Source of the DNA: a virus
Taxonomy: Duplodnaviria; Heunggongvirae; Uroviricota; Caudoviricetes
Length of the DNA stretch: 30,806 bases
Direction: 5' to 3' (one strand)
Virus record (IMG/VR): IMGVR_UViG_3300030438_000300
Below the pieces are notes generated by a model. That model was not told the DNA's origin and did not search any database. It saw only the letters and a program-made list of their open reading frames with translations. Both the position numbers and the translations under genes were made by a program. Positions 1 to 21,620 of this stretch are shown here, piece by piece (position 1 is the first letter of the stretch; each line of letters starts with the position of its first letter).

Positions 1-10
1 TACTCCTCCT

Positions 11-715
11 TTATCCGATATCGCTTCGGGAAGTTGATAACAACTTCAATTCTGACTCAAGTTCATCAACTCTTTCAGTCAGTTTCTGGATATGGTGAAT
101 CAGTGGAACAACCAGACGTTCGTACATTACACCTTCGGCAACAAGGCCATTGCTGGAAATAGCTTCCCGTGCATCATCTTCGTTAGCTGATCGCCAGTGT
201 ACAAACTGAGGGGCAATTTCTCCTACTTCCTCGGCAATCAATCCGTAGAATCCCCAGTCACGCCTGTCATTTTCGCATTGTGACCTGTACCATACAGGGC
301 GCATCCTGAAAATGAGATCGGCGTGCTCTGAATCTATCGTCTCTACTGAATGTTTATAGCGGATAGACGATGTTGACCGCAGTACAGACGAAATTGCAGG
401 GTCAGGATTAAGATAAAGGTTTGCCGCCGCTGTAGTCGTGGCCAAATTCCATAAATAAAACGCTTCACGACCTGTCAGTGGATAAAAATCTCCGCCATAA
501 CGACCACTTTCCAGATCGTTCACTTCCACTTTGTTTTTCAGCTTATTATCAACTTCAGTTTTTGTGTATCTGGAGCTGATATCCTGCTTTGCACTGGTCA
601 TATCAGTCTGAAGCGTTGATACTTTACCGTTAATTGAGGAAATATCTTCCTTCGCTTTACTGACATCTCCCTTCAGCGTGGTGATGTCTCCCGGAATTAC
701 TGTCGATGTAGCCAT
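11..715 (-). CDS. Standalone protein with tail-fibre/tailspike C-terminal intramolecular chaperone-like domain (peptidase S74-like)
   Basis: 234-aa ORF with a GAGGGAG RBS about 6 nt upstream of the ATG. The N-terminal part is coiled-coil-like. The C-terminal part contains DWGFYGLIAEEVGEIAPQFV, which resembles the conserved G(F/L)IAQEV..P..V motif of endosialidase/tail-fibre chaperone domains. An in-frame TGA lies about 30 nt upstream, so this is not the open 3' end of a longer tail-fibre gene in this frame. Confidence 0.55.
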   Translation of the reverse strand: MATSTVIPGDITTLKGDVSKAKEDISSINGKVSTLQTDMTSAKQDISSRYTKTEVDNKLKNKVEVNDLESGRYGGDFYPLTGREAFYLWNLATTTAAANLYLNPDPAISSVLRSTSSIRYKHSVETIDSEHADLIFRMRPVWYRSQCENDRRDWGFYGLIAEEVGEIAPQFVHWRSANEDDAREAISSNGLVAEGVMYERLVVPLIHHIQKLTERVDELESELKLLSTSRSDIG

Positions 716-869
716 TTGTCTCCCTCACATCCAGCCACGAAGTTGATGTTCAACAACAACCGCGTATTCATCGAATATTGACGATTTTTTTGCATCATTA
801 ATGATGCGCACGTTGGTGATGCTGCCAACTTACTGATTTAGTGTATGATGGTGTTTTTGAGGTGCTCCA

Positions 870-1145
870 GTGGCTTCTGTTTCTATCAGCTGTCCCTCCT
901 GTTCAGCTACTGACGGGGTGGTGCGTAACGGCAAAAGCACCGCCGGACATCAGCGCTATCTCTGCTCTCACTGCCGTAAAACATGGCAACTGCAGTTCAC
1001 TTACACCGCTTCTCAACCCGGTACGCACCAGAAAATCATTGATATGGCCATGAATGGCGTTGGATGCCGGGCAACTGCACGCATTATGGGCGTTGGCCTC
1101 AACACGATTTTACGTCACTTAAAAAACTCAGGCCGCAGTCGGTAA
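870..1145 (+). CDS. insA: IS1 InsA (transposition inhibitor / N-terminal part of InsAB' transposase)
   Basis: 91-aa product [43 protein letters not shown]... matches IS1 InsA as recalled. Confidence 0.95.
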
Positions 1146-1567
1146 CCTCGCGCATACAGCCGGGCAGTGACGTCATCGTCTGCGCGGAAATGGACGAACA
1201 GTGGGGCTATGTCGGGGCTAAATCGCGCCAGCGCTGGCTGTTTTACGCGTATGACAGTCTCCGGAAGACGGTTGTTGCGCACGTATTCGGTGAACGCACG
1301 ATGGCGACGCTGGGGCGTCTTATGAGCCTGCTGTCACCCTTTGACGTGGTGATATGGATGACGGATGGCTGGCCGCTGTATGAATCCCGCCTGAAGGGAA
1401 AGCTGCACGTAATCAGCAAGCGATATACGCAGCGAATTGAGCGGCATAACCTGAATCTGAGGCAGCACCTGGCACGGCTGGGACGGAAGTCGCTGTCGTT
1501 CTCAAAATCGGTGGAGCTGCATGACAAAGTCATCGGGCATTATCTGAACATAAAACACTATCAATAA
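1064..1567 (+). CDS. insB: IS1 InsB reading frame (expressed as InsAB' transposase by -1 frameshift)
   Basis: 167-aa frame ...[28 protein letters not shown]... matches IS1 InsB. Slippery motif TTAAAAAACTC lies at about 1119-1129 (A6C at 1121-1127) within the insA/insB overlap. Confidence 0.9.
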
Positions 1568-1672
1568 GTTGGAGTCATTACCCGAGCGACATTGCTCCGT
1601 GTATTCACTCGTTGGAATGAATACACAGTGCAGTGTTTATTCTGTTATTTATGCCAAAAATAAAGGCCACTA

Positions 1673-1873
1673 TCAGGCAGCTTTGTTGTTCTGTTTACCA
1701 AGTTCTCTGGCAATCATTGCCGTCGTTCGTATTGCCCATTTATCGACATATTTCCCATCTTCCATTACAGGAAACATTTCTTCAGGCTTAACCATGCATT
1801 CCGATTGCAGCTTGCATCCATTGCATCGCTTGAATTGTCCACACCATTGATTTTTATCAATAGTCGTAGTCAT
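1673..1873 (-). CDS. Small Cys-rich hypothetical protein at the kil-equivalent position of the leftward early operon
   Basis: 66-aa ORF with an AGGA RBS about 9 nt upstream. Contains CGQFKRCNGCKLQSEC (C-x5-C-x2-C-x5-C). Position is equivalent to kilR, which precedes sieB in Rac. No sequence-level family assignment is possible from memory. Confidence 0.4.
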   Translation of the reverse strand: MTTTIDKNQWCGQFKRCNGCKLQSECMVKPEEMFPVMEDGKYVDKWAIRTTAMIARELGKQNNKAA

Positions 1874-2029
1874 ACGGATAGTCCTGGTATTGTTCCATCA
1901 CATCCTGAGGATGCTCTTCGAACTCTTCAAATTCTTCTTCCGTGTATCACCTTAAATAGTGGATTGCGGTAGTAAAGATTGTGCCTGTCTTTTAACCACA
2001 TCAGGCTCGGTGGTTCTCGTATACCCCTA

Positions 2030-2080
2030 CAGCGAGAAATCGGATAAACTCTATTCACCCCTACAGAGAGCAAAAGAGAA
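2030..2080 (+). promoter_or_regulatory. Direct repeats ACCCCTACAG(C/A)GAG upstream of sieB (candidate promoter or regulator sites)
   Basis: Two 13-14-nt near-identical copies at about 2033-2046 and 2067-2080, 34 bp centre to centre, immediately upstream of the sieB start at 2087. Confidence 0.3.
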
Positions 2081-2086
2081 ACGCCG

Positions 2087-2668
2087 ATGAACAACTCATG
2101 GTGGCAGGAACTAATGCATTTTTTCCTGCAAGGAATGACACTTAAACAGTTGATTCATATGCTAATCATCCTGATCATATTGATTATTGTTATGCCGGTA
2201 AGCGTAAAAGAATGGATAAACCTGCATAATCCAGAAATCCTTCCTCATTATTGGATGTATTACATCCTGTTGTTCTGCGTTAGCTATGTGCTTAACGGTG
2301 TTGTTAATTCCGCTTATCACGCTGTGACTGAAAGAATTGAGGTATCCGCTGCTCAGAAGCGCAAATCTAAAGAAGAAAAATATGTGCAAGATTTGTTTGA
2401 TTCGTTAACTCTTGGAGAAAGAGCGTATTTGGCATTCGCTGTAGCCGCGAATAACCAGCTAAAGACAGAAAAGGGAAGCCCTGAAGCAATCTCATTGCTC
2501 GAAAAAGGGCTTCTTATTCGGATACCTTCTGCTACTGGATATCCTGAAATCGACCGTTTTGTTATCCCGGAACGCTATAGAAATGAGTGCTACATTAGGT
2601 TTGCTGGGAAGAAAGACAGTCTTATGGATGAACTTATCGCTCAGGATAAGCATGGCAAAAACAAGTAA
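2087..2668 (+). CDS. sieB: Superinfection exclusion protein B
   Basis: 193-aa protein with hydrophobic N-terminal segments (LIHMLIILIILIIVMPV, YWMYYILLFCVSYVL) resembling lambda/Rac SieB as recalled. Orientation is opposite to the pL genes, as in Rac. The true start could be the internal Met at 2114. Confidence 0.8.
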   Translation: MNNSWWQELMHFFLQGMTLKQLIHMLIILIILIIVMPVSVKEWINLHNPEILPHYWMYYILLFCVSYVLNGVVNSAYHAVTERIEVSAAQKRKSKEEKYVQDLFDSLTLGERAYLAFAVAANNQLKTEKGSPEAISLLEKGLLIRIPSATGYPEIDRFVIPERYRNECYIRFAGKKDSLMDELIAQDKHGKNK

Positions 2669-2683
2669 TTAGCAAATGATTTA

Positions 2684-2956
2684 TCATCTCGCCGTCAGTT
2701 GTTTTGATTTCCTGTAGCCTGCCGCGTAAATGGCTACGTTCGGAAGACAAGTTGAACCTTCATATTTTCTGGTCAACGTTGTCAGAGTTATCACTTCTGC
2801 TCTCATTGCTGGTTTGCGCTTGCATTGCAAGACCACTCGTGAAGGGGTTGGCCTGTGTAGCTTGTCGGAGCTGATCGCCTCCTGACTTTGCAGATTTGCG
2901 CGACGAGCTCTACGGCGAGAAGCTGCGGTGCCTTTAAATTCTGTTTTTCTGGACAT
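2684..2956 (-). CDS. N: N-type transcription antitermination protein (P22 gp24-like)
   Basis: 90-aa product starting MSRKTEFKGTAASRRRARRANLQ (arginine-rich motif) and ending NVAIYAAGYRKSKQLTAR, matching the recalled C-terminus of P22 N. GGGAGGA RBS 5 nt upstream. The ORF-track extension to 3028 lacks an RBS and runs into nutL. Confidence 0.8.
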   Translation of the reverse strand: MSRKTEFKGTAASRRRARRANLQSQEAISSDKLHRPTPSRVVLQCKRKPAMRAEVITLTTLTRKYEGSTCLPNVAIYAAGYRKSKQLTAR

Positions 2957-3055
2957 GGATTCCTCCCGAATAAACTTTGGCGATGCAATCTCGAAGCTCC
3001 TCCTGAGACGGTTGCTTCGGCATTGCATCCCACAGCTTATGTGGTTGGGTGATCT

Positions 3056-3100
3056 GGCTTTTCAGCCACGTAGTCGAGAGTCGACGTTGTTTAAAGAGCC
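3056..3100 (-). promoter_or_regulatory. nutL: Candidate nutL (boxA plus boxB-like hairpin)
   Basis: Minus strand reads GCTCTTTAAACAA (boxA-like, cf. consensus CGCTCTTTA), then a GTCGA-CTC-TCGAC hairpin, then GGCTGAAAAGCC (stem with purine-rich loop), located between the presumed pL and the N start. Confidence 0.5.
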
Positions 3101-3260
3101 TGCCAGTCTGTTCCATTTGGCTTCCAGCGTCCTGCTGACGATTAAATAGTACGATATGTACTTTACAAGATCAATACAATTTGTTGTAAGTTGGCGTGGT
3201 TTTTTATAACGCTTTGTATTTAATAGTGTTGTTTTTTAGCGTGGATGTATTGCCTCGGCG
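3101..3260 (-). promoter_or_regulatory. Candidate pL/OL operator-promoter region
   Basis: AT-rich non-coding region upstream of nutL/N. Contains motifs also present in the cI-cro intergenic region: TAACGCTTTGTATT (about 3207-3220) and, inverted, GTACTTTAC... (about 3152-3168). Confidence 0.4.
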
Positions 3261-3360
3261 ATGTAAGGAGAGATCAGAATTGCGTGGTTTAGTGGGTTGC
3301 ATCTATTTATTTTTCAATAAATACAATTGGTTATGTGTTTTTAGGTGGGGCGATCGTGAG

Positions 3361-3388
3361 GCAAAGAAAACCCGGCGCTGAGACCGGG
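3361..3388 (-). terminator. Intrinsic terminator immediately downstream of the RexB-like gene
   Basis: On the minus strand, stop TAA (3391-3389) is followed by hairpin CCCGGTCTCAGCGCCGGG (3388-3371) and TTTTCTTTG. Confidence 0.55.
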
Positions 3389-3880
3389 TTATTGTTGCTT
3401 GAGTTTTTCGTTATAAATCTGTTTCAGCTTTATTGGTATGAAAAAAGAGCATCCAAATGAAATTATGCTTAGCCAGCATATAATAAACTCAAGTGCCAGA
3501 CTCAGGTTGGTCACAGGCGGCTTGCTTGCTAAGATTTTACTGGTGTCTCCTGGTGGCAGCAGCATGTAGTAGAAGAATATTAAGCACAAGACTGTAAGAT
3601 AGAGGTAAAAAAGCATCATGTAACGAGAAAACCGAATTTCGAATTTCCTCTTAGTTGCATACTTTTCTGATCTTGATTTACCTTCTGTAAACGATGCTAC
3701 GTCTCCACTTGTGGTTATAACAAGTAACAGAAACCCTGTTAATATTGAAAATATATTTGCCACAAGTCCAAGCAACTCTTTGTTATATCTAACCTTATCA
3801 TGTAAATAATAAGTTAATACAAGAGAAAGGCAGATAAAAAAGATTATGGAAAAAATATAACTCCAATCTTTACCTCTCAT
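3389..3880 (-). CDS. RexB-position small integral membrane protein (4 predicted TM helices); candidate effector of a phage-exclusion system
   Basis: 163-aa ORF with four hydrophobic segments (YIFSIIFFICLSLVLTYYL, LLGLVANIFSILTGFLLLVITT, YMMLFYLYLTVLCLIFFYYMLL, LSLALEFIICWLSIISFGCSFFI). Strongly AT-rich. Same strand as cI and last gene of the cI-distal pair, as rexB is in lambda. No sequence similarity to lambda RexB recognised. Confidence 0.65.
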   Translation of the reverse strand: MRGKDWSYIFSIIFFICLSLVLTYYLHDKVRYNKELLGLVANIFSILTGFLLLVITTSGDVASFTEGKSRSEKYATKRKFEIRFSRYMMLFYLYLTVLCLIFFYYMLLPPGDTSKILASKPPVTNLSLALEFIICWLSIISFGCSFFIPIKLKQIYNEKLKQQ

Positions 3881-3917
3881 TCACACCTCCCCCTTTGGTT
3901 ATACGTACAACCCTCCA

Positions 3918-4769
3918 TTATAGTATGAAATCCTTGAAGTGCTCAAGAATTTCCTTAGCGTGTTCCGCTTTTATGGTGGTAGAGCCATACTTTCTTGTGT
4001 AATAATCTTTTTTTGTTTTGATTTCAGAGCTTTTGATCGCTTGGCCTTTTGATGTTGTGATGAAGAACTCTTCCGATAATTCATCAATGATCAGGCTTGG
4101 ATTTTTGTTCGCAATATTTAAGAGTTTTGGGTTATGTCTCTTGTCAAGAGTCAGAAGCCCATAGAAAGAGTTGTCATCATCTTGCTCTTTCTCAAATAAT
4201 CTTGACAAAGCTTCTTTAGCTTTTCCAGTGATACCTAATGATGTTGCTTTTGCCTCTTCTAGATCTTCTTTTGTTGTTTCAATACTTAGGCTGATGGAGC
4301 GTATTCCATCTTTTATTATCTTGCCAAGTGCATCTTTGTTGAGTTTCTCAGAAATATTCACATTGATATTCATGAGGCTAAATATTTTTTTTAACTTAGA
4401 TAAAGGATGAGTTCCTGATAGTTGAAAAATTGTTAGAATATTGCTTTCTGTTGCAAGTAAGAATATATGGCATTTATCATAATTATCTACATCCTGCAAA
4501 TCGTTATGGTCTCCATCTTTTGGAGTTACCGGGACCAAAGCTTTGGGCTCATAGAGTGTTATCCCAGCAAAGATTTGGTCATCGTTAACTATTAGACTTT
4601 TTATCCTTGCCCGAGTGTCGTTAGAGTACTCAAAGTCATAGTTTTGTTTGAAATTTTCGCATGTCTTCAAGACATCTACAAATGAGTATCCGTCATTACA
4701 ATCTACTTCAAATAGCGAAGTTTGTACTTTTTTGGGGAAATCTTTATTTTTTTCTTCCGAAAAATTCAT
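3918..4769 (-). CDS. RexA-position soluble protein; candidate sensor of a phage-exclusion system
   Basis: About 283-aa ORF from ATG 4769, with AAGGA RBS 6 nt upstream (the ORF track begins 2 codons earlier at TTG 4775). Lys/Asp/Glu-rich and AT-rich. No Walker, HNH or other catalytic motif recognised. Sits between cI and the 4-TM gene, as rexA does in lambda. Confidence 0.65.
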   Translation of the reverse strand: MNFSEEKNKDFPKKVQTSLFEVDCNDGYSFVDVLKTCENFKQNYDFEYSNDTRARIKSLIVNDDQIFAGITLYEPKALVPVTPKDGDHNDLQDVDNYDKCHIFLLATESNILTIFQLSGTHPLSKLKKIFSLMNINVNISEKLNKDALGKIIKDGIRSISLSIETTKEDLEEAKATSLGITGKAKEALSRLFEKEQDDDNSFYGLLTLDKRHNPKLLNIANKNPSLIIDELSEEFFITTSKGQAIKSSEIKTKKDYYTRKYGSTTIKAEHAKEILEHFKDFIL

Positions 4770-4868
4770 TGGCAATCCTTACTTTTTAATAAATGATTTT
4801 CAGTAAATTAATCAGTAAGTTGTTTAGCATAGGGTATGTGCGCTTTTGATAAATTACATGCAGTCACA

Positions 4869-5522
4869 TCACCCAAACGTCTCTTCAGGCCACTGACTAG
4901 CGATAACTTTCCCCACAACGGAACAACTCTCATTGCATGGGATCATTGGGTATTGTGGGTTTAGTGGCTGTAGAAACATCTGACCGCTATCCCTGATCAG
5001 TTTCTTGAAGGTAAACTCATCACCACCAAGTCTGGCTATACAGAAATCGCCTGGCTCAACAGCCTGCTCAGGGTCAACCAGAATTAACATCCCGTCAGGA
5101 AAGCTGGGCTTGGAACCTGTTGGTGCGGTCATTGAGTTACCTTCAACCTCAAGCCAGAATGCAGAGTCACTGGCTTTTTTGGTTGTGCTTACCAATCTCT
5201 CCGCATCGCCTTTGGTAAAGGTTCTGAGTTCTGGAGAGAACATCCCAGCCTGAACATGAGAAAAAACAGGGTACTCATATTGTTTTTTAACTGGGGCCGA
5301 TGAGTATTCGCCAACAGGTGAAAATGTCCCGTCGTGGTTGAATGATATGTTATCAATACCAAGGTATTTAAACACCACACCAATATCACTAAGAGATGGA
5401 TGACGAGATCCGCGCAACCAGTGTCCAATCCCACCCTGCGTCATACCTAGCTCTTCGGCTAACTTCTCTTGAGTTATGCCGAGCTCTTTCATTCTGGATC
5501 TAGCCAGTTCATACCATTTCAT
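4869..5522 (-). CDS. cI: CI-type prophage repressor (XRE HTH N-domain plus LexA/S24-like C-domain)
   Basis: The C-terminal ~130 aa ([27 protein letters not shown]...[15 protein letters not shown]) are near-identical to the lambda cI C-terminal domain as recalled. The N-terminal HTH ([38 protein letters not shown]) is different. Start chosen at the second Met (AGGA at 7-nt spacing); Met 5528 or the ORF-track start 5570 are alternatives. Confidence 0.9.
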
Positions 5523-5528
5523 TTTCAT

Positions 5529-5638
5529 GTCCTTATTATTACGCTTTGTACTGGAACCATCCATGCACAATGTGTATTTTTACTTGTATTCGTAAAGTAC
5601 ATATTGTATTTTTTATTCGTGTTTACTATGGAGGGCAT
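5529..5638. promoter_or_regulatory. Candidate OR operator region with divergent pRM/pR
   Basis: 110-bp AT-rich intergenic between divergent cI and cro. Contains TTACGCTTTGTACT (5539-5552) and GTAAAGTACATAT (5592-5604), both recurring upstream of N. Confidence 0.55.
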
Positions 5639-5854
5639 ATGAGCAACCTACGAAAATATCGAGAGTCACTGAATATCTCTCAAACAACACTTGCTAAGGC
5701 AGTTGGATGCACACAGGGAGCTATCGGACATTGGGAATCTGGTCGTCGCTTCCCAGACCTTAAAACATGCCGTGCTCTTGTTGCGTGCCTAAACAAGTTA
5801 GGCGCAAAAGTCAGTCTTGATGACGTGTTCCCGCCGGAACACAAAGCCGCTTAA
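5639..5854 (+). CDS. cro: Cro-like repressor (HTH XRE family)
   Basis: 71-aa product MSNLRKYRESLNISQTTLAKAVGCTQGAIGHWESGRRFP with GGAGGG RBS. Its recognition-helix region is paralogous to that of the adjacent cI (TQGGIGHW vs TQGAIGHW). Confidence 0.85.
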   Translation: MSNLRKYRESLNISQTTLAKAVGCTQGAIGHWESGRRFPDLKTCRALVACLNKLGAKVSLDDVFPPEHKAA

Positions 5855-5864
5855 TAAGCGGATC

Positions 5865-5909
5865 CGCTCTTTGTAACAACGGACATTCGTCCTACGTCGC
5901 TGAAAAGCG
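5865..5909 (+). promoter_or_regulatory. nutR: Candidate nutR (boxA plus boxB-like hairpin)
   Basis: CGCTCTTTGTAACAA (boxA-like) 11 nt after the cro stop, then a GGAC-ATTC-GTCC hairpin, then CGCTGAAAAGCG. Same architecture as the nutL candidate. Confidence 0.5.
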
Positions 5910-5995
5910 AGTTCCAAGATATCTGACCAACTAAGGCCATATGCGTTTCCACGCATACCTTTCAACTAACTATTCACTATTGGAAATCTTAAGAA

Positions 5996-6292
5996 ATGGA
6001 AAGAACAAGTTACAGCAAACTATCACAGCGTGACGTTGATCGCGCAGAAACAGATTTACTTATCAATCTGTCAGCTATTACCCAGCGCGGTCTGGCAAAG
6101 ATGATTGGCTGTCATGAATCGAAGATAAGCAGAACGGATTGGAGATTTATTGCTTCGGTCTTGTGTGCTTTCGGAATGGCATCAGACATCAGTCCGATTA
6201 GCAGGGCTTTTAAGTATGCGCTTGATGGACTCACCAATAAAAAACGCCCGGCGGCAACCGAGCGTTCTGAACAAATCCAGATGGAGTTCTGA
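5996..6292 (+). CDS. cII: CII-type transcriptional activator (hybrid)
   Basis: 98 aa. C-terminal LTNKKRPAATERSEQIQMEF matches the lambda CII C-terminus as recalled; the N-terminal ~75 aa differ. Weak RBS. Confidence 0.8.
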   Translation: MERTSYSKLSQRDVDRAETDLLINLSAITQRGLAKMIGCHESKISRTDWRFIASVLCAFGMASDISPISRAFKYALDGLTNKKRPAATERSEQIQMEF

Positions 6293-6324
6293 GGTCATTA
6301 CTGGATCTATCAACAGGAGTCATT

Positions 6325-7224
6325 ATGACAAATACAGCAAAAATACTCAACTTCGGCAGAGGTAACTTTGCCGGACAGGAGCGTAATGTGGCAGATCTCG
6401 ATGATGGTTACGCCAGACTATCAAATATGCTGCTTGAGGCTTATTCGGGCGCAGATCTGACCAAGCGACAGTTTAAAGTGCTGCTTGCCATTCTGCGTAA
6501 AACCTATGGGTGGAATAAACCAATGGACAGAATCACCGATTCTCAACTTAGCGAGATTACAAAGTTACCTGTCAAACGGTGCAATGAAGCCAAGTTAGAA
6601 CTCGTCAGAATGAATATTATCAAGCAGCAAGGCGGCATGTTTGGACCAAATAAAAACATCTCAGAATGGTGCATCCCTCAAAACGAGGGAAAATCCCCTA
6701 AAACGAGGGATAAAACATCCCTCAAATTGGGGGATTGCTATCCCTCAAAACAGGGGGACACAAAAGACACTATTACAAAAGAAAAAAGAAAAGATTATTC
6801 GTCAGAGAATTCTGGCGAATCCTCTGACCAGCCAGAAAACGACCTTTCTGTGGTGAAACCGGATGCTGCAATTCAGAGCGGCAGCAAGTGGGGGACAGCA
6901 GAAGACCTGACCGCCGCAGAGTGGATGTTTGACATGGTGAAGACTATCGCACCATCAGCCAGAAAACCGAATTTTGCTGGGTGGGCTAACGATATCCGCC
7001 TGATGCGTGAACGTGACGGACGTAACCACCGCGACATGTGCGTGCTGTTCCGCTGGGCATGCCAGGACAACTTCTGGTCCGGTAACGTGCTGAGCCCGGC
7101 CAAACTCCGCGATAAGTGGACCCAACTCGAAATCAACCGTAACAAGCAACAGGCAGGCGTGACAGCCAGCAAACCAAAACTCGACCTGACAAACACAGAC
7201 TGGATTTACGGGGTGGATCTATGA
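6325..7224 (+). CDS. O: Replication initiator O (lambda-type)
   Basis: 299-aa product MTNTAKILNFGRGNFAGQERNVADLDDGYARLSNMLLEAY... is essentially lambda O as recalled and contains the ori iterons. Confidence 0.95.
   Translation: MTNTAKILNFGRGNFAGQERNVADLDDGYARLSNMLLEAYSGADLTKRQFKVLLAILRKTYGWNKPMDRITDSQLSEITKLPVKRCNEAKLELVRMNIIKQQGGMFGPNKNISEWCIPQNEGKSPKTRDKTSLKLGDCYPSKQGDTKDTITKEKRKDYSSENSGESSDQPENDLSVVKPDAAIQSGSKWGTAEDLTAAEWMFDMVKTIAPSARKPNFAGWANDIRLMRERDGRNHRDMCVLFRWACQDNFWSGNVLSPAKLRDKWTQLEINRNKQQAGVTASKPKLDLTNTDWIYGVDL
6673..6758 (+). repeat. ori: ori-lambda iterons (four ~19-bp O-binding repeats) followed by an A/T-rich unwinding region
   Basis: ATCCCTCAAAACGAGGGAA, ATCCCCTAAAACGAGGGAT, ATCCCTCAAATTGGGGGAT and ATCCCTCAAAACAGGGGGA, followed by ACAAAAGACACTATTACAAAAGAAAAAAGAAAAG (about 6760-6800). 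Confidence 0.9.
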
Positions 7225-7922
7225 AAAACATCGCCGCACAGATGGTTAACTTTGACCGTGAGCAGATGCGTCGGATCGCCAACAACATGCCGGAACAGTA
7301 CGATGAAAAGCCGCAGGTACAGCAGGTAGCGCAGATCATCAACGGTGTGTTCAGCCAGTTACTGGCAACTTTCCCGGCGAGCCTGGCTAACCGTGACCAG
7401 AACGAAGTGAACGAAATCCGTCGCCAGTGGGTTCTGGCTTTTCGGGAAAACGGGATCACCACGATGGAACAGGTTAACGCAGGAATGCGCGTAGCCCGTC
7501 GGCAGAATCGACCATTTCTGCCATCACCCGGGCAGTTTGTTGCATGGTGCCGGGAAGAAGCATCCGTTATCGCCGGACTGCCAAACGTCAGCGAGCTGGT
7601 TGATATGGTTTACGAGTATTGCCGGAAGCGAGGCCTGTATCCGGATGCGGAGTCTTATCCGTGGAAATCAAACGCGCACTACTGGCTGGTTACCAACCTG
7701 TATCAGAACATGCGGGCCAATGCGCTTACTGATGCGGAATTACGCCGTAAGGCCGCAGATGAGCTTGTCCATATGACTGCGAGAATTAACCGTGGTGAGG
7801 CGATCCCTGAACCAGTAAAACAACTTCCTGTCATGGGCGGTAGACCTCTAAATCGTGCACAGGCTCTGGCGAAGATCGCAGAAATCAAAGCTAAGTTCGG
7901 ACTAAAAGGAGCAAGTGTATGA
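7221..7922 (+). CDS. P: Replication protein P (DnaB helicase loader, lambda-type)
   Basis: 233-aa product MKNIAAQMVNFDREQMRRIANNMPEQYDEKPQVQQVAQIINGVF... matches lambda P as recalled. ATGA overlap with the O stop. Confidence 0.95.
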   Translation: MKNIAAQMVNFDREQMRRIANNMPEQYDEKPQVQQVAQIINGVFSQLLATFPASLANRDQNEVNEIRRQWVLAFRENGITTMEQVNAGMRVARRQNRPFLPSPGQFVAWCREEASVIAGLPNVSELVDMVYEYCRKRGLYPDAESYPWKSNAHYWLVTNLYQNMRANALTDAELRRKAADELVHMTARINRGEAIPEPVKQLPVMGGRPLNRAQALAKIAEIKAKFGLKGASV

Positions 7923-8209
7923 CGGGCAAAGAGGCAATTATTCATTACCTGGGGACGCATAATAGCTTCTGTGCGCCGGACGTTGCCGCGCTAACAGGCG
8001 CAACAGTAACCAGCATAAATCAGGCCGCGGCTAAAATGGCACGGGCAGGTCTTCTGGTTATCGAAGGTAAGGTCTGGCGAACGGTGTATTACCGGTTTGC
8101 TACTAGGGAAGAACGGGAAGGAAAGATGAGCACGAACCTGATTTTTAAGGAGTGTCGCCAGAGTGCCGCGATGAAACGGGTATTGGCGGTATATGGAGTT
8201 AAAAGATGA
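7919..8209 (+). CDS. ren: Ren (Rex exclusion escape protein, lambda-type)
   Basis: 96-aa product MTGKEAIIHYLGTHNSFCAPDVAALTGATVTSINQAAAKMARAGLLVIEGKVWRT matches lambda Ren as recalled. ATGA overlap with P. Confidence 0.9.
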   Translation: MTGKEAIIHYLGTHNSFCAPDVAALTGATVTSINQAAAKMARAGLLVIEGKVWRTVYYRFATREEREGKMSTNLIFKECRQSAAMKRVLAVYGVKR

Positions 8210-8234
8210 CCATCTACATTACTGAGCTAATAAC

Positions 8235-8266
8235 AGGCCTGCTGGTAATCGCAGGCCTTTTTATTT
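8235..8266 (+). terminator. tR2: tR2-like intrinsic terminator
   Basis: Hairpin AGGCCTGC-tggtaatc-GCAGGCCT followed by TTTTATTT, between ren and ninB, as at lambda tR2. Confidence 0.7.
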
Positions 8267-8282
8267 GGGGGAGAGGGAAGTC

Positions 8283-8723
8283 ATGAAAAAACTAACCTTT
8301 GAAATTCGATCTCCAGCACATCAGCAAAACGCTATTCACGCAGTACAGCAAATCCTTCCAGACCCAACCAAACCAATCGTAGTAACCATTCAGGAACGCA
8401 ACCGCAGCTTAGACCAAAACAGGAAGCTATGGGCCTGCTTAGGTGACGTCTCTCGTCAGGTTGAATGGCATGGTCGCTGGCTGGATGCAGAAAGCTGGAA
8501 GTGTGTGTTTACCGCAGCATTAAAGCAGCAGGATGTTGTTCCTAACCTTGCCGGGAATGGCTTTGTGGTAATAGGCCAGTCAACCAGCAGGATGCGTGTA
8601 GGCGAATTTGCGGAGCTATTAGAGCTTATACAGGCATTCGGTACAGAGCGTGGCGTTAAGTGGTCAGACGAAGCGAGACTGGCTCTGGAGTGGAAAGCGA
8701 GATGGGGAGATCGGGCTGCATGA
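8283..8723 (+). CDS. ninB: NinB (recombination mediator, Orf family)
   Basis: 146-aa product MKKLTFEIRSPAHQQNAIHAVQQILPDPTKPIVVTIQERNRSLDQNRKLWACLGDVSRQVEWHG... matches lambda NinB as recalled. GGAG-rich RBS. The ORF track has a 6-codon upstream extension. Confidence 0.9.
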   Translation: MKKLTFEIRSPAHQQNAIHAVQQILPDPTKPIVVTIQERNRSLDQNRKLWACLGDVSRQVEWHGRWLDAESWKCVFTAALKQQDVVPNLAGNGFVVIGQSTSRMRVGEFAELLELIQAFGTERGVKWSDEARLALEWKARWGDRAA

Positions 8724-9247
8724 CAATCAAATCAAATACGCCAGCACACGACAAGGACTGCTGGCAAACGCCGCTTTGGCTTTTTGATGCACTGGATATT
8801 GAGTTTGGATTCTGGCTGGATTCGGCAGCGAGCGACAAAAATGCTCTGTGTGCTCACTGGCTAACTGAGGCCGACGACGCGCTCAATTCTGAGTGGGTAA
8901 GCCACGGTGCAATCTGGAATAACCCACCGTACAGCAATATCAGGCCGTGGGTGGAAAAAGCCGCTGAGCAGTGCATACAACAGCGACAGACGGTAGTTAT
9001 GCTTGTGCCAGAGGATATGTCAGTCGGATGGTTCAGCAAGGCTCTGGAGAGTGTCGACGAAGTTCGCATTATCACTGATGGACGGATTAATTTTATCGAA
9101 CCATCGACAGGGTTGGAGAAGAAGGGAAACAGCAAAGGCTCCATGCTGCTGATTTGGCGACCGTTCATCAGTCCTCGACGGATGTTTACTACCGTATCCA
9201 AAGCGGCATTGATGGCGATCGGGCAGGGCGTCAGGAGGGCGGCATGA
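8720..9247 (+). CDS. Phage DNA N6-adenine methyltransferase (Dam-like, orphan)
   Basis: 175-aa product from [26 protein letters not shown]... with catalytic-type motif [12 protein letters not shown] overlap with the ninB stop. No cognate restriction gene is seen. Confidence 0.8.
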
Positions 9248-9420
9248 GGCGACAGCGACGAAGTTTCACCGACATCATCTGCGAAAACTGCAAATACCTT
9301 CCAACGAAACGCTCCAGAAATAAACGCAAGCCAATCCCAAAAGAATCTGACGTAAAAACCTTCAATTACACAGCTCACCTGTGGGATATCCGGTGGCTAA
9401 GATATCGTGCGAGGAAATGA
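9244..9420 (+). CDS. ninE: NinE
   Basis: 58-aa product [58 protein letters not shown] resembles lambda NinE as recalled. ATGA overlap with the methyltransferase stop. Confidence 0.8.
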
Positions 9421-9764
9421 CAATGGATTATTCACAGTTAAGTGATTTTGAAATTAACAGAATGGTAGGAGACATAATTTTTAAAGGCCTTTGGGCAAGT
9501 AAACCGGAAACATCAGGGAATAACACCAACAAATGGTATTACGGAAATGCTGATACAACTTTTGAGCCATTAAATCATTTGCCTGACTACTGCAATGATC
9601 CGAGCGCTTCATGGCCGATTATTGAGAAATACAGGATTTCTATCTTAGACCAGTTAACTGAATGGTGTGTGGATGCAAAAGGCGTAAGCCCAATATTTGA
9701 TACCAGACCTCTCCGCGCCGCCATGATTGTCTTTCTCCTGATGCAGGAGGCCAATAATGCTTAG
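9417..9764 (+). CDS. Hypothetical nin-region protein
   Basis: 115-aa ORF from [22 protein letters not shown]..., translationally coupled to ninE by an ATGA overlap. No family recognised. Confidence 0.6.
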
Positions 9765-9974
9765 CCCATCTCAATCCCTTCAATACCAGAAAGGAAGCAT
9801 AGAGCGGGCTTCAATGAGCACAGAGTGGATTCTATCTAGGTTTAGCGCATACAGAAGATTGCCGGTAAAGGGCATGCCAAGCAAGTCGATGCTGCATATG
9901 CAAAAGAATGCGCGCTGGAAGGTATGGCGAAAACACAGGTTATGTGGCTGAAAGAGGGGATTATTAAGGCGTGA
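9757..9974 (+). pseudogene. Mosaic-junction remnant: ninF-like 5' end joined to the 3' end of a ybcO-like (DUF1364) gene
   Basis: Frame-1 ORF starts [18 protein letters not shown], like the lambda NinF N-terminus as recalled, then diverges. Frame 0 from about 9846 to stop 9972-9974 reads ...[32 protein letters not shown], like the C-terminus of DLP12 YbcO as recalled, with no upstream start and a TAG at 9843-9845. Confidence 0.45.
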
Positions 9975-10333
9975 ATACCTACAGCATCACATTACCCTGG
10001 CCTCCGAGCAATAATCGCTATTACCGCCATAATCGCGGGCGCACGCACGTCAGCGCAGAGGGGCAGGCATACCGCGATAACGTCGCCAGAATCATTAAAA
10101 ACGCAATGCTGGATATCGGCCTGGCTATCCCTGTGAAAATCCGCATTGAGTGCCACATGCCGGATCGCCGTCGCCGTGACCTGGATAATCTGCAAAAAGT
10201 CGCTTTTGACGCACTCACTAAAGCAGGTTTCTGGCTGGATGATGCTCAGGTCGTTGATTACCGCGTTGTGAAGATGCCTGTTACCAAAGGTGGGAGGCTG
10301 GAACTGACCATCACCGAAATGGGGAATGAATGA
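9971..10333 (+). CDS. rusA: Holliday junction resolvase RusA
   Basis: 120-aa product (GTG start) [52 protein letters not shown]...[12 protein letters not shown] is essentially E. coli DLP12 RusA as recalled. Confidence 0.92.
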
Positions 10334-10470
10334 TGTTTGAGTTTAATATGGCAGAACTTCTTCGCCACCGCTGGATGCGCCTGCGCTTATATCGTTTCCC
10401 CAGTTCTGTTTTGACCGATTACCGAATACTGAAGAATTACGCCAAAACCCTGACAGGAGCAGGAGTATGA
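10333..10470 (+). CDS. ylcG: Small protein YlcG-like
   Basis: 45-aa [48 protein letters not shown], overlapping the rusA stop (TGATG). Resembles DLP12 YlcG as recalled. Below the ORF-track size cut-off. Confidence 0.6.
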   Translation: MFEFNMAELLRHRWMRLRLYRFPSSVLTDYRILKNYAKTLTGAGV

Positions 10471-10555
10471 AGTCAGAGATAACAATCAACTAATACTGTT
10501 TTGTTGATTTTTGCTTGTAATTGGCGTTCTGGTCTGATTTTTGTGGAGTAAGTTG

Positions 10556-10939
10556 ATGCGTGATATTCAGATGGTTCTTGAACGTTGGGGAGCGTGGGCG
10601 GCTAATAATCATGAAGATGTGACCTGGTCGTCCATTGCCGCCGGTTTTAAGGGATTAATTCCTTCAAAAGTAAAATCTCGCCCGCAATGTTGTGACGATG
10701 ACGCGATGATCATTTGCGGGTGCATGGCCCGTCTGAAAAAGAACAACAGCGATTTGCACGATTTATTAGTAGATTATTATGTAGTCGGTATGACATTCAT
10801 GTCACTGGCAGGTAAGCATTGCTGCTCTGATGGTTATATCGGGAAAAGGTTACAGAAGGCTGAGGGTATAATTGAAGGGATGTTAATGGCATTAGATATC
10901 CGGTTAGAGATGGATATCGTTGTTAATAACTCTAATTAA
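10556..10939 (+). CDS. quuD: Late-gene antiterminator Q (phage 82/DLP12 QuuD type)
   Basis: 127-aa product [33 protein letters not shown]...[18 protein letters not shown]... matches QuuD as recalled. GGAG RBS 8 nt upstream of ATG 10556. The ORF track begins at the upstream TTG 10541. Confidence 0.9.
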
Positions 10940-11128
10940 TATGCCAGTTGTTTACTAAAAGTTATTAAAAATGGGGCGTTGCAACGCCCCCAAAAATAAA
11001 GGGTAATATATAACAGAAGGTTTATATAGTTAGAAGCAAGGTTGTGCTCCTAAAGGAAGTGGCTTGAGGGAGCCACTTATATGTTGGGGAGGCAAAGCCT
11101 CCCGCAACATATCTTTTTCGTAATCAGA

Positions 11129-12211
11129 TTAGAACTGATACACCAGACCTACAGCGACGATGTCGTCGGTATCAATACCAGCTGTTTTGGTAAACTTACT
11201 ATCGTCAATTAAGTTGATTTTGTAATCAACAAAAGTGGACATGTTTTTATTAAAGTAGTAAGTAGCACCGACATCGACATACTTGACTAAGTCTCGGTCA
11301 CCATGAACACCAAGGTCTTTACCTTTTGACTGAAGGTAAGCAACAGATGGTCGCAGACCGAAGTCAAACTGATATTGTGCTACTGCTTCAAAGTTTTGTG
11401 CTTTGTTTGCAATATGGTTATTACCAAAAACGGTCATATTCTGAGTTTCAGAATATGTGGTAGCCAGATAGATATTGTTCGCATCATATTTCAGGCCTGC
11501 AGCCCATACTTCCGCATTTTTGCCGGAGGCATTGAATTTGCTCTTACCATAGGCGACCTGACCGTCAGTGCGATCTGATTTAGCATAGGTTGCACCCACG
11601 CCGAATCCTTCATACTCATAAGTAGTGGAGAAACCGAAACCATCACCATTGGCTTCAGTTACGTCAGTGCGGTCATTTTTACCCTGATACTGAGCAGCAA
11701 AGTTCAGGCCATCGACCAGACCAAAGAAGTCGTTGTTACGATAGGTTGCAACACCAGTGGTGCGACCAGTCATGAACACATCTGTTTGGGTCCAGGTATC
11801 GCCACCGAATTCTGGCAGAACGTCAGTCCACGCACCGATGTCGTATGCTACACCGTAGTTACGGCCGTAATCGATTGAGCCGTAGTCACCGAATTTCAGG
11901 CCTGCAAATGCAAGACGGGTTTTGTCTTTGGAGGAACCTTGAGATTCAGCGCGGTTGCCTTTGAATTCATATTCCCACTGACCGAAACCAGTCAGTTGAT
12001 CGTTGATTTGGGTTTCACCTTTGAAGCCAAGACGGGCATAAGTAGTATCACCATCATCTGCATCATTAGAGGAGAAGTAGTGCTTAGCATTAACTTTCCC
12101 GTACAGATCCAGCTTGTTACTGTCTTTATTATAAATTTCAGCTGCCTGAGCAGACATCGCCATCAGTACTGATGCAGCTACAGCAGAAATTGCCACTGTT
12201 AATTTTTTCAT
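11129..12211 (-). CDS. nmpC: Outer membrane general porin (OmpC/NmpC family), apparently intact
   Basis: 360-aa product with signal peptide [30 protein letters not shown]..., beta-barrel porin-like sequence and C-terminal ...VGLVYQF. Lies between Q and the lysis genes on the opposite strand, as nmpC does in DLP12. Confidence 0.9.
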
Positions 12212-12640
12212 CGTGAGCCCTTTTTTTTGAACTATTATTAAAAAATGATGTCACTGCGCGATAAATATTCATCTAATCAATGTGATTATTTCAAGATGTA
12301 AGTTTTGGTTTCTCGTTTGATTTGTGAAGTAGATCTCTATTTTTATCTGAACTTTTTTCTATCGAATCCTATTCATGGCTCTTGGCTGAATAAAAATAAA
12401 TCTATTAGCCAATTTATATTAACGGCTATTATTTATAAGTGCTCTATAATTTGAAGGTTCAATTTAAACCAGCTAAAAATAACACTGGAAATTATTTGTT
12501 GGTTATTTGTTGAGATTTGCTTATGTATTTGTAGCGGTGTTTTCAATACTCGGTAGCATTCTCGCAAATATCATTTAGTGGTTTACGTACGTAAAAAATT
12601 GGTTATGCTGTTAAGAGTGGTTACTTCGTCACACAGCTTA

Positions 12641-12672
12641 AACCCGCCGTCGAGCGGGTTTTTCCATTTTTT
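12641..12672 (+). terminator. Strong plus-strand intrinsic terminator upstream of the lysis cassette (candidate tR')
   Basis: AACCCGCCGTCGAGCGGGTTTTTCCATTTTTT: GC-rich hairpin followed by a T-run. The reverse complement has no U-tract, so it acts on plus-strand transcripts only. Confidence 0.55.
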
Positions 12673-12800
12673 GAGTCTCGATATTAGCTGATAACCCAAT
12701 ACCTGAGTTATTCACTGACTCCGAGTCTGTTACGTTTCTGCTTTTTTGCGATACGTTGTATTCCCTCAATTTACACCCGCTTTGTCTGCGAGGTGGGGTT

Positions 12801-13016
12801 ATGAAATCCATGGATAAGTTAACAACGGGTGTCGCCTATGGCACCTCAGCAGGTAGTGCCGGGTACTGGTTTTTACAGCTGCTAGATAAAGTCACGCCCT
12901 CACAGTGGGCGGCAATTGGAGTGCTGGGTAGCCTGGTATTTGGCCTGCTGACGTACCTGACAAACCTTTATTTCAAGATTAAAGAAGACAAGCGTAAGGC
13001 TGCACGGGGAGAGTAA
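12801..13016 (+). CDS. essD: Holin (EssD-like, dual-start motif)
   Basis: 71-aa product [81 protein letters not shown]1-K-S-M4 dual-start arrangement. Confidence 0.85.
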
Positions 13017-13020
13017 TTCA

Positions 13021-13371
13021 ATGACTCAAAACTATGAACTGATTGTGAAAGGGATCCGCAATTTTGAGAATAAAGTTACGGTAACTTTAGCGTTACGGGA
13101 CAAAAAACGCTTTGACGGTGAAATTTTTGACCTGGACATCTCGCTGGACCGTGTTGAAGGTGCCGCGCTGGAGTTTTATGAGGCAGCAGCCAGAATGAGC
13201 ATCAGACAGGTCTTCCTGGATGTTGCTGCCGGGTTATGTGAAGGGGATGAGCAGTCGCCGGAAAAGCGCCCCGTAATTTTAGAGGCGCAGAATGTATGGA
13301 TAACCTACAAAGGAAAGCTACCGGGAAGAATTACTGGTTCTCTGAAGACTCCTCCGGAATCACAACCTTAA
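13021..13371 (+). CDS. Hypothetical protein embedded in the lysis cassette (between holin and endolysin)
   Basis: 116-aa ORF starting 4 nt after the holin stop; no motif recognised. By position it is analogous to ydfR (DUF1327) in Qin (recalled; unverified). Confidence 0.6.
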   Translation: MTQNYELIVKGIRNFENKVTVTLALRDKKRFDGEIFDLDISLDRVEGAALEFYEAAARMSIRQVFLDVAAGLCEGDEQSPEKRPVILEAQNVWITYKGKLPGRITGSLKTPPESQP

Positions 13372-13434
13372 GTCACTGACCGGAACAGATAAACCTGTCC
13401 GTGGGCAGAAACCGATAAATCCTGATAAATATCC

Positions 13435-14432: not shown

Positions 14433-14463
14433 AGCTGCCCATATCGATGGGCAACTCATGCAA

Positions 14464-14760: not shown

Positions 14761-15140
14761 ATTATCCTGCATTGTTAAAAACGGCAGAATCCTATGTGAC
14801 AACAATTAAACGATAGTTAAATGGATTGATGAAAATTAAAACTATATAGGTGGATGCTCAGCCTATCGGAGGTAGTCAGGATTTGAATGTCAGTCTGTTG
14901 TCGGCATTCTGGCAATGCAATTTGGATAAAGCGGGGATTAAAAAGATAGAGGCGAGCCGGTCAGGTAGAAATGAATCAGGCTCAAAGTGAAGCGGAAAAG
15001 GTCTGTGGCACAAGCTGATGCAGCCATAATTACAGCCTGATGATTTGTGGAATGAAACATGTTGAACCTCCTTAATTGATGTTATTCGAGTGATGAAGGC
15101 ATTCTGTCCTTCTATAGTGTCCAGTAAATCAAACAGGAAA

Positions 15141-21612: not shown

Positions 21613-21620
21613 GAGGAGAC

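What the first reader, a model, noticed from the sequence alone, without database searches (positions are those of the whole stretch)
11..715. Standalone ORF carrying a tail-fibre chaperone-type domain next to IS1
The protein has an N-terminal coiled-coil-like region and a C-terminal segment with the GLIAEEV...P motif typical of the self-cleaving chaperone domains at the ends of tail fibres and tailspikes, yet it has its own RBS and an in-frame stop upstream. It is either a truncated tail-fibre tip left by the IS1-associated rearrangement or a separately encoded fibre-tip module from another prophage.
Basis: partly seen in the sequence, partly recalled or inferred. Interest (0 to 1): 0.4.

Follow-up and report, generated by a model that had tools for sequence, protein, structure and literature searches.

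The report
Separately encoded self-cleaving tail-fibre tip gene
This is an intact, ordinary prophage gene for a small tail-fibre end-piece with a self-cleaving folding domain; the IS1 rearrangement beside it broke up the fibre gene set it belongs to but did not truncate the gene itself.

Summary
The ORF is real. It lies at 11..715 on the minus strand, encodes 234 aa, and has a GAGGGAG ribosome-binding site and an in-frame TGA three codons upstream. It has a helical N-terminal part. Its C-terminal Peptidase_S74 domain scores above Pfam's cut-off, keeps Ser116/Lys121, and its model folds like solved chaperone domains.

It is not a truncated fibre. Genes of the same length occur in intact phages such as IdasGreatGrand (97% identical), in 729 of 5426 complete E. 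coli genomes, and in 80 of 80 viral contigs. They are under purifying selection (dN/dS 0.15).

It is the third gene of a conserved set: a long proximal fibre, a ~92-aa protein, then an S74 protein with the invariant N-terminus M-T-T-IP-DIT-LK. This set occurs in lambdoid, T1-like, Seuratvirus and T5-like phages. In IrisVonRoten the same position encodes Gp24, published as a distal fibre attached to the proximal fibre.

IS1 (815..1582, no target duplication) lies 5' of the gene. It cut the 93-aa gene down to 29 codons and marks an inversion that separated this gene from its partners.

Most likely it is a minimal distal fibre subunit that trimerises and self-cleaves at Thr115|Ser116. The annotation "lateral tail fiber chaperone" is the main rival. 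Known kind, low novelty.

The parts
11..715 (-). Complete 234-aa gene for a separately encoded fibre module. Residues 1-24 form a conserved N-terminal anchor, ~25-70 a coiled coil, 71-115 a short beta-rich tip, and 116-234 an S74 intramolecular chaperone / autoprotease domain.
   Evidence: ORF. Pfam S74 above cut-off. PHROG 3299 and 37852 matches. Same-length homologues. dN/dS 0.15.
365..370 (-). Predicted autocleavage site, Thr115|Ser116 (codons at 368-370 and 365-367). Ser116 is the nucleophile and Lys121 (codon 350-352) its dyad partner.
   Evidence: S116, S117 and K121 are invariant in alignment A1 and invariant or >=90% conserved in A2. The Ser-x4-Lys spacing equals that of MYRF S578/K583 and the endosialidase dyad (PMC3742443). 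Cleavage itself is inferred, not shown.
644..715 (-). N-terminal anchor, residues 1-24 (MATSTVIPGDITTLKGDVSKAKED). It is specific to the standalone form and is the presumed docking peptide.
   Evidence: M1, T3, T5, I7, P8, D10, I11, T12, L14 and K15 are invariant across lambdoid, Drexlerviridae, Seuratvirus and two T5-like phages. Fused long-fibre relatives match only from query residue 25-49 onward.
716..724 (-). Nine-nucleotide spacer carrying the Shine-Dalgarno sequence (GAGGGAG spans 719-725 and overlaps the upstream TGA).
   Evidence: Sequence read directly. The same 9-nt spacing and same reading frame are seen in IdasGreatGrand, HMD-P4, KurtStettler and IrisVonRoten.
725..814 (-). 3' remnant of the conserved 93-aa fibre-locus gene (PHROG 1361). 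Only the last 29 codons plus the stop remain (NVRIINDAKKSSIFDEYAVVVEHQLRGWM*); IS1 cut off the rest.
   Evidence: Translation matches the C-terminus of the intact 93-aa protein of L001. Homology to reference genomes ends at 814.
815..1582 (+). IS1 element, 768 bp, with insA at 870..1145 and insB' at 1064..1567. It forms the rearrangement junction.
   Evidence: Terminal repeats read directly. The 9-bp flanks differ: gcgcacgtt at 806-814 and cgagcgaca at 1583-1591, so there is no target-site duplication. The two flanks map to one prophage in opposite orientation.

Best explanation
The ORF is a complete gene, the last conserved member of a three-gene side/lateral tail-fibre set. The set consists of a long proximal fibre, a ~92-aa protein of unknown role, and a short protein that carries its own C-terminal S74 intramolecular chaperone.

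Proposed mechanism. Three copies of the 234-aa chain are brought into register by the C-terminal domain (residues 116-234). That domain templates folding of the N-terminal coiled coil and the short tip. Once the trimer is formed, the Ser116/Lys121 dyad cuts the chain between Thr115 and Ser116 and the chaperone leaves. The remaining 3 x 115-residue mini-fibre docks through its invariant N-terminal peptide (MAT-T-IP-DIT-LK) onto the proximal fibre, possibly with help from the 92-aa protein. It then forms the distal piece or a branch of the fibre.

What is shown: gene completeness, set membership, the S74 fold and its catalytic residues, purifying selection, and the IS1 damage. What is inferred: trimerisation, cleavage, docking and presence in the virion.

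State in this window. The gene is an orphan. An IS1-associated inversion truncated the 93-aa gene and separated this gene from the proximal fibre gene and the late operon. It is most likely non-functional as a fibre part in this prophage.
For: Completeness. Standalone genes of the same length lie in intact phages in the order J, lom, 731-aa fibre, 93 aa, 234 aa (IdasGreatGrand). They are also present in 729 of 5426 complete E. coli genomes, including BL21(DE3) Qin, and in 80 of 80 IMG/VR loci. There the 93-aa gene is directly upstream in 79 and the fibre gene is upstream in all 80.

Conserved gene set. The same three-gene order occurs in KarlJaspers (651/92/225 aa), KurtStettler (583/92/510), HMD-P4 (782/91/333) and IrisVonRoten (796/92/574). 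Proximal-fibre C-terminal parts are 49-68% identical. The 92-aa proteins are 41-82% identical. The N-terminus of the third protein is invariant.

Published precedent. IrisVonRoten Gp24, the positional homologue with the same N-terminus and a C-terminal chaperone domain, is modelled as a distal fibre attached to proximal fibre Gp22 (PMC11990801). In DT57C, LtfB attaches to LtfA through a short conserved N-terminus, and both carry autocleavable pfam13884 domains (PMC4728585).

S74 domain. The Pfam hit is above cut-off. S116 and K121 are invariant. The AlphaFold model is confident over 118-234. Foldseek finds MyRF ICA 7dc3 at E 1e-5, and more weakly the 2010 intramolecular-chaperone crystal structures 3gud and 3gw6.

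The N-terminal 115 residues look like the chaperone's client. In fused relatives such as P0064 and P0066 (phage_tail_N ... S74), query residues 37-115 are the end of the mature fibre. All segments are under purifying selection: dN/dS is 0.14 for the anchor, 0.13 for the tip and 0.12 for the chaperone domain.

IS1 damage. Shown.
Against: No experiment or virion proteomics for this 225-234-aa subfamily was found.

The mature product would be very small, with only about 45 non-coiled residues per chain.

Unlike a typical receptor-binding protein, it is highly conserved among E. coli prophages (mean column identity 0.96). The preceding fibre's distal ~400 residues are hypervariable there (0.32-0.65). 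If it binds anything, the target is invariant.

The AlphaFold monomer model is unreliable for residues 59-117 (pLDDT below 50). No multimer model could be run, so docking and trimer geometry are untested.

The BASEL authors annotate it as 'putative lateral tail fiber chaperone'.
Confidence: 0.62

Rival explanations
1. It is a trans-acting assembly factor, as the annotation 'putative lateral tail fiber chaperone' implies. The protein would help the upstream proximal fibre, which has no S74 domain of its own and no intact Tfa gene, to trimerise or mature. It would not be a stable virion component.
For: The BASEL and other GenBank annotations use this name.

The protein is strongly conserved while the partner fibre's distal half is hypervariable, which suits a housekeeping assembly role.

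The proximal fibre has phage_tail_N, GTA_spike_fiber and Laminin_G_3-like domains but no chaperone domain.

The mature part is very small.
Against: The annotation appears to derive from the Pfam name 'Chaperone of endosialidase'; no experiment was found.

In the characterised S74 proteins read here, the domain is part of the chain it folds and is then cut off (PMC3742443; PMC4728585). That it cannot act on a separate chain is my recollection of the endosialidase literature, not something checked here.

Residues 37-115 are homologous to the mature tips of fused fibres.

Positional homologues vary from 225 to 574 aa and carry receptor-binding domains, which fits structural fibres rather than chaperones.

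A fibre-specific chaperone would be expected to co-vary with the variable fibre tip. This protein does not.
Confidence: 0.22
2. It is a truncated tail-fibre tip created by the IS1 rearrangement. The ORF would be the 3' end of a longer fibre gene whose 5' part was lost, with a fortuitous start codon.
For: IS1 lies 99 bp upstream and lacks a target duplication.

Most S74 relatives are C-termini of long fibres.

PHROG 3299 aligns the ORF to positions 1147-1384 of a 1385-position profile.
Against: The identical start, ribosome-binding site, upstream stop and 234-aa length occur without IS1 in intact phages and in hundreds of genomes.

The N-terminal 15 residues are invariant as a true N-terminus across five phage groups.

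The sequence between the ATG and IS1 is the 3' end of a different conserved gene.
Confidence: 0.01
3. It is a constant second adhesin or cap. The mature mini-fibre would bind an invariant host structure such as the LPS core or an outer-membrane protein. Alternatively it would transiently mask or regulate the variable lectin-like domain of the proximal fibre. This is a functional sub-variant of the best explanation.
For: The tip is highly conserved (dN/dS 0.13) next to a hypervariable partner.

The BASEL paper suggests that conserved receptor-binding proteins in multi-fibre phages have a 'more mechanical role' (PMC11990801). It also cites chaperone 'caps' on fibres.
Against: There is no direct evidence. 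The 45-residue tip has no detectable similarity to any known binding domain.
Confidence: 0.15

Closest known systems
Gp24 of T5-like phage IrisVonRoten (Bas32), the distal 'T-shaped' lateral tail fibre, with Gp22 and Gp23
   Same: Same locus position: third gene after a proximal fibre with a lectin-like C-terminus and a 92-aa protein, with a 9-nt spacer. Same N-terminal peptide (MVTKTVIPTDITKLK against MATSTVIPGDITTLK). Also has a C-terminal S74 chaperone domain (PMC11990801).
   Different: Gp24 is 574 aa and carries two receptor-binding domains, one Gp12-like and one T5-like. The window protein lacks both; it has only a coiled coil and a ~45-residue tip. Gp24-type domains are highly variable, whereas this protein is highly conserved.
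LtfA/LtfB branched L-shaped tail fibres of T5-like phages DT57C and DT571/2
   Same: The fibre is built from two separately encoded proteins. The second attaches to the first through a short conserved N-terminus, and autocleavable pfam13884 domains are present (PMC4728585; PMC10713586).
   Different: The LtfB N-terminus was not detected as similar; no DT57C hit appeared. In DT57C both fibres carry S74 domains, and no 92-aa gene between ltfA and ltfB was mentioned in the passages read. In the present set the proximal fibre has no S74 domain.
C-terminal intramolecular chaperone / autoprotease domain (Peptidase S74) of phage tail-spike and tail-fibre proteins (endosialidases, T5 L-shaped tail fibre, GA-1 gp12) and of eukaryotic MYRF
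   Same: Pfam match above cut-off, conserved Ser-x4-Lys dyad, same fold by Foldseek, and a long C-terminal helix.
   Different: In those proteins the domain ends a large enzyme or long fibre of 700-1300 aa. Here its client is only 115 residues and is encoded as a separate gene.
Lambda Stf/Tfa and Mu-type tail fibre assembly proteins
   Same: Same genomic slot, downstream of J and lom at the right end of a lambdoid late operon, serving side tail fibre formation.
   Different: There is no sequence or domain relationship to Tfa. Only pseudogene Tfa fragments lie further downstream in related prophages. The chaperone principle differs: a cis autocleaving domain rather than a separate Tfa protein.

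Membership tests
Peptidase S74 / intramolecular chaperone autocleavage (ICA) domain | Sequence match to the Pfam PF13884 profile above the curated gathering score | tested here: met
   27.5 bits against a cut-off of 22, E 4e-6, residues 116-172 aligned to profile positions 1-57 of 58.
Peptidase S74 / intramolecular chaperone autocleavage (ICA) domain | Catalytic Ser-Lys dyad with Ser-x4-Lys spacing at the start of the domain | tested here: met
   S116 and K121 are invariant in A1 (17 sequences). In A2 (46 sequences) K121 is invariant and S116 is >=90% conserved. The spacing is the same as MYRF S578/K583 (PMC3742443).
Peptidase S74 / intramolecular chaperone autocleavage (ICA) domain | Three-dimensional fold of the ICA domain | tested here: met
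   The AlphaFold2 model has block-mean pLDDT 70-95 over residues 121-230. Foldseek against the PDB gives 7dc3 MyRF ICA at E 1.3e-5 and probability 1.00. The 2010 'intramolecular chaperone' crystal structures 3gud and 3gw6 match more weakly, at E 0.04-0.2.
Peptidase S74 / intramolecular chaperone autocleavage (ICA) domain | Trimerisation-dependent self-cleavage that releases the domain | not testable with these tools
   Needs expression and SDS-PAGE or mass spectrometry of wild type against an S116A mutant.
Two-part or branched lateral tail fibre: distal subunit docked on a proximal fibre (IrisVonRoten Gp22/Gp24, DT57C LtfA/LtfB type) | Encoded immediately downstream of a proximal fibre gene in a conserved locus | tested here: met
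   Met in homologous loci (80 of 80 IMG/VR loci). In the window itself the proximal fibre gene is no longer adjacent, because IS1 intervenes.
Two-part or branched lateral tail fibre: distal subunit docked on a proximal fibre (IrisVonRoten Gp22/Gp24, DT57C LtfA/LtfB type) | Short conserved N-terminal attachment peptide shared by otherwise different distal subunits | tested here: met
   Ten of the first 15 residues are invariant across proteins of 225-574 aa from five phages. The peptide is absent from fused relatives.
Two-part or branched lateral tail fibre: distal subunit docked on a proximal fibre (IrisVonRoten Gp22/Gp24, DT57C LtfA/LtfB type) | Physical attachment to the proximal fibre and presence in the virion | not testable with these tools
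   No multimer prediction was available and no proteomic data were found.
Two-part or branched lateral tail fibre: distal subunit docked on a proximal fibre (IrisVonRoten Gp22/Gp24, DT57C LtfA/LtfB type) | Carries a variable receptor-binding domain that determines host range | tested here: not met
   No receptor-binding domain was detected. The protein is 93-100% identical across 80 prophage loci and its tip has dN/dS 0.13, while the proximal fibre's distal half varies.
Tail fibre assembly proteins (Tfa / gp38 type, trans-acting chaperones) | Sequence or profile similarity to known Tfa families | tested here: not met
   No Tfa or Caudo_TAP family appeared among the Pfam, PHROG or NCBIfam hits.

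The most novel reading that the evidence does not exclude
The conserved 225-234-aa subfamily might not be a receptor binder at all. It could be an S74 protein that has been set free to act between chains. For example, its self-cleaving trimer could nucleate or cap the hypervariable lectin-type proximal fibre, together with the uncharacterised 92-aa protein found in 186 phage genomes. That would be the first intermolecular use of the S74 chaperone. It would also define a portable three-gene fibre module shared by lambdoid, T1-like, T5-like, Queuovirinae and rV5-like phages.
Probability: 0.12. Interest if true: 0.5.

Novelty: new member of a known kind. Interest (0 to 1): 0.2.

Why it matters
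For this window it matters little. The gene is an orphaned part of a prophage tail-fibre locus scrambled by IS1. Identical or near-identical genes are already annotated in hundreds of E. coli genomes as 'tail fiber domain-containing protein'.

There are two modest points of wider value.

- The common database label 'chaperone of endosialidase / lateral tail fiber chaperone' for these short proteins is probably misleading. The evidence points to a self-processing structural mini-fibre.
- The set of proximal fibre, 92-aa protein and S74 protein with a universal N-terminal anchor is a portable three-gene module exchanged among at least five phage groups. That is useful to know for host-range engineering, where distal modules could be swapped through the shared anchor. 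The roles of the 92-aa protein and of the minimal distal subunit remain untested.

Tried and rejected
Literature. Four searches gave no experimental data on this short subfamily: lateral tail fiber + Drexlerviridae + chaperone, intramolecular chaperone + lambdoid + coiled-coil, Drexlerviridae cryo-EM, and 'chaperone of endosialidase' proteomics. The Cronobacter gp28 paper and the Hf4s preprint proved irrelevant.

The 92-aa protein. A profile search against PDB sequences and scans of Pfam and NCBIfam found nothing significant.

Stop-codon read-through. I considered read-through fusing the 93-aa and 234-aa products, because the two ORFs are in frame and separated by TGA plus 9 nt in four of five loci. 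I rejected it as a conserved mechanism: in KarlJaspers the frames differ and the spacer is 2 nt.

'Head fibre' reading. This was suggested by PHROG 'minor head protein' hits and by NCBI's 'phage head spike fiber domain' name. The PHROG hits are weak coiled-coil or S74 matches. The NCBI name belongs to a GTA_spike_fiber domain in the neighbouring proximal fibre, not in this protein.

IS1-ral junction. I looked for the same junction in another genome (H5). There IS1 sits inside ral, so it is a different event.

Structure. The AlphaFold monomer gives no usable model for residues 59-117. No multimer tool was available.

Full report
OBSERVATION

The ORF is real and lies on the minus strand at 11..715, encoding 234 aa. 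The coding strand reads ...GGC TGG ATG TGA GGG AGA CAA ATG GCT.... This gives a GAGGGAG ribosome-binding site and an in-frame TGA three codons before the ATG. Pfam Peptidase_S74 matches residues 116-172 at 27.5 bits, above the curated cut-off of 22. A complete 768-bp IS1 occupies 815..1582. Because the gene is on the minus strand, IS1 is upstream (5') of it.

IS THE GENE TRUNCATED? NO

- tblastn finds proteins of the same length in complete phage genomes: IdasGreatGrand at 97% identity, PhiR49_1 at 95%, PhiR55_1 at 92%. Homologues at about 60% identity occur in about 45 T1-like phages.
- In IdasGreatGrand the gene order is J, lom, a 731-aa fibre, a 93-aa gene, the 234-aa gene, then a 95-aa gene.
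- The segment 1..814 is present at 93-99.9% identity in 755 of 5426 complete E. coli genomes, and at 80% coverage or more in 729. One of these is the Qin prophage of BL21(DE3). RefSeq calls the protein 'tail fiber domain-containing protein'.
- All 80 related IMG/VR loci carry a full-length copy; 78 are 233-234 aa. The 93-aa gene lies directly upstream in 79 of them.
- Across 37 distinct alleles dN/dS is 0.15, and it is below 0.33 in every segment.

WHAT IS1 DID

Homology to reference prophages stops at 814. Window 725..814 encodes only the last 29 residues of the 93-aa protein. The 9-bp flanks of IS1 differ (gcgcacgtt and cgagcgaca), so this is a rearrangement junction rather than a simple insertion.

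In E. coli 50579417, window 1..814 maps to 3823804-3824617 on the minus strand. Window 1583..25000 maps to 3791637-3812089 on the plus strand of the same lambdoid prophage, next to bio. Strain 405 shows the same opposite orientation.

To the right of IS1 the window runs through ral, sieB, a cI-like repressor, replication genes, a porin gene, terminase, portal, capsid, tape measure and tail assembly protein I. The simplest reading is an IS1-mediated inversion within one prophage. It detached this gene from the proximal fibre gene and the late operon. The second junction lies outside the window, so this remains an inference. An independent IS1 insertion in the same small gene occurs in strain CE0007a.

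WHAT THE PROTEIN IS

The AlphaFold2 model shows three parts:

- a long helix over residues 12-60;
- an unreliable beta-rich stretch over 59-117, as expected for an intertwined trimer modelled as a monomer;
- a confident C-terminal domain from about residue 118 to 234 that ends in a long helix.

Foldseek against the PDB returns the MyRF ICA domain 7dc3 at E 1e-5 and probability 1.0. The 2010 'intramolecular chaperone' crystal structures 3gud and 3gw6 match more weakly. phmmer finds the T5 L-shaped tail fibre 8hqz. S116 and K121 are conserved across the family, with the Ser-x4-Lys spacing of the characterised catalytic dyad (PMC3742443). Cleavage between T115 and S116 is therefore predicted. It would leave a 115-residue mature chain.

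RELATIVES

An exhaustive phmmer search finds 3419 relatives. Most are C-termini of proteins of 300-1300 aa, and they match the query only from residue 25-49 onward. Examples are lambdoid Stf proteins with phage_tail_N at the start and S74 at the end, such as P0064 (735 aa) and P0066 (958 aa). Residues ~37-115 are thus homologous to the mature distal end of ordinary fibres. Residues 1-24 are specific to the standalone form.

A CONSERVED THREE-GENE SET

The order [proximal fibre] - [91-93-aa protein] - [S74 protein] recurs in five phages:

| Phage | Group | Protein sizes (aa) |
|---|---|---|
| IdasGreatGrand | lambdoid | 731 / 93 / 234 |
| KarlJaspers | Drexlerviridae | 651 / 92 / 225 |
| KurtStettler | Seuratvirus | 583 / 92 / 510 |
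| HMD-P4 | T5-like | 782 / 91 / 333 |
| IrisVonRoten | T5-like | 796 / 92 / 574 |

- The proximal fibres share a C-terminal part at 49-68% identity. It carries GTA_spike_fiber and Laminin_G_3-like domains. Their N-terminal anchors differ according to the phage group.
- The small proteins are 41-82% identical. They occur in 186 phage records, including Dhillonvirus and rV5-like phages. They match no known family or structure.
- The third proteins share an invariant N-terminus (M-T-T-IP-DIT-LK) and a C-terminal S74 domain. Their middle parts differ.

IrisVonRoten Gp24 has been modelled with AlphaFold-Multimer as a distal 'T-shaped' fibre with two receptor-binding domains, attached to proximal fibre Gp22 (PMC11990801). 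DT57C LtfB is a second fibre that attaches to LtfA through a short conserved N-terminus (PMC4728585). The window protein is the minimal member of this series.

MECHANISM AND ITS WEAK POINT

Best explanation (confidence about 0.6): the S74 domain trimerises its own N-terminal 115 residues and cuts itself off. The mini-fibre then docks by its N-terminal peptide onto the proximal fibre.

The weak point is conservation. Among E. coli prophages this protein is almost invariant (mean column identity 0.96), whereas the distal ~400 residues of the proximal fibre are hypervariable (0.32-0.65). It is therefore not the specificity determinant. It may bind an invariant target, act as a cap or strut, or, as the BASEL annotation 'putative lateral tail fiber chaperone' implies, act in assembly (rival, about 0.2).

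Against a pure trans-chaperone role:

- in the S74 proteins read about here the domain is part of the chain it folds;
- the N-terminal part is homologous to mature fibre tips;
- the positional homologues carry receptor-binding domains;
- the protein does not co-vary with the variable fibre.

No experimental data were found.

VERDICT

The 'truncated remnant' reading is refuted and the 'separately encoded module' reading is supported. The gene is a member of a known kind, namely multi-part lateral tail fibres with self-cleaving chaperone domains, and it is already widely annotated. Interest is low. Two questions remain open: what the minimal distal subunit does, and what the ubiquitous 92-aa partner does.

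Noticed in passing
window 3389..3880 (-) and 3918..4775 (-): Two genes, one of 163 aa that looks hydrophobic by eye and one of 285 aa, lie immediately downstream of the cI-like repressor gene (4869..5570, minus strand) on the same strand. This is the position, order and size pattern of lambda rexA/rexB. Neither has a Pfam or PADLOC match. They are a candidate uncharacterised prophage exclusion or defence pair.
   Followed up: partly
window 11129..12211 (-): A prophage-borne 360-aa general porin gene (Porin_1, E 2e-151) sits before the late region (terminase from 16263). A related genome (S1-CAM-01-C) annotates an ompC porin within the region matching this part of the window.
   Followed up: no
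L001 12725-13006; L002 6402-6683; L003 6720-6998; L004 4716-4991; L005 4713-4991; L088 5001-5279 (remnant in window 725..814): A 91-93-aa protein (PHROG 1361) always sits between the proximal fibre gene and the S74 gene. It occurs in 186 phage records spanning lambdoid, Drexlerviridae, Dhillonvirus, Queuovirinae, T5-like and rV5-like phages. It has no Pfam, NCBIfam or PDB match, and its function is unknown.
   Followed up: partly
L005 5001-6533 (Escherichia phage KurtStettler bas22_0024): The third-gene homologue is 510 aa. Its S74 domain is in the middle (residues 208-259). It is followed by about 250 residues, first rich in Gly and Trp and then in Gln and Cys, ending in PTPPTPPTSCC. This is an unusual extension after a domain that is normally C-terminal.
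   Followed up: no
L008-L087 (IMG/VR E. coli prophage loci), fibre gene upstream of the match: Across 66 distinct alleles the proximal side tail fibre has a conserved N-terminal ~450 residues (column identity 0.91-0.98) and a hypervariable distal ~400 residues (0.32-0.65). The three small downstream genes stay at 0.89-0.96. This is a sharp mosaic boundary typical of receptor-binding-domain swapping.
   Followed up: partly
L006 5020-5717 (E. coli CE0007a) and L007 8968-10130 (BL21(DE3) Qin): Insertion sequences hit this fibre locus repeatedly. CE0007a has an independent IS1 between the fibre gene and a shortened 93-aa gene. BL21(DE3) has an IS3 that truncates the proximal fibre gene.
   Followed up: no
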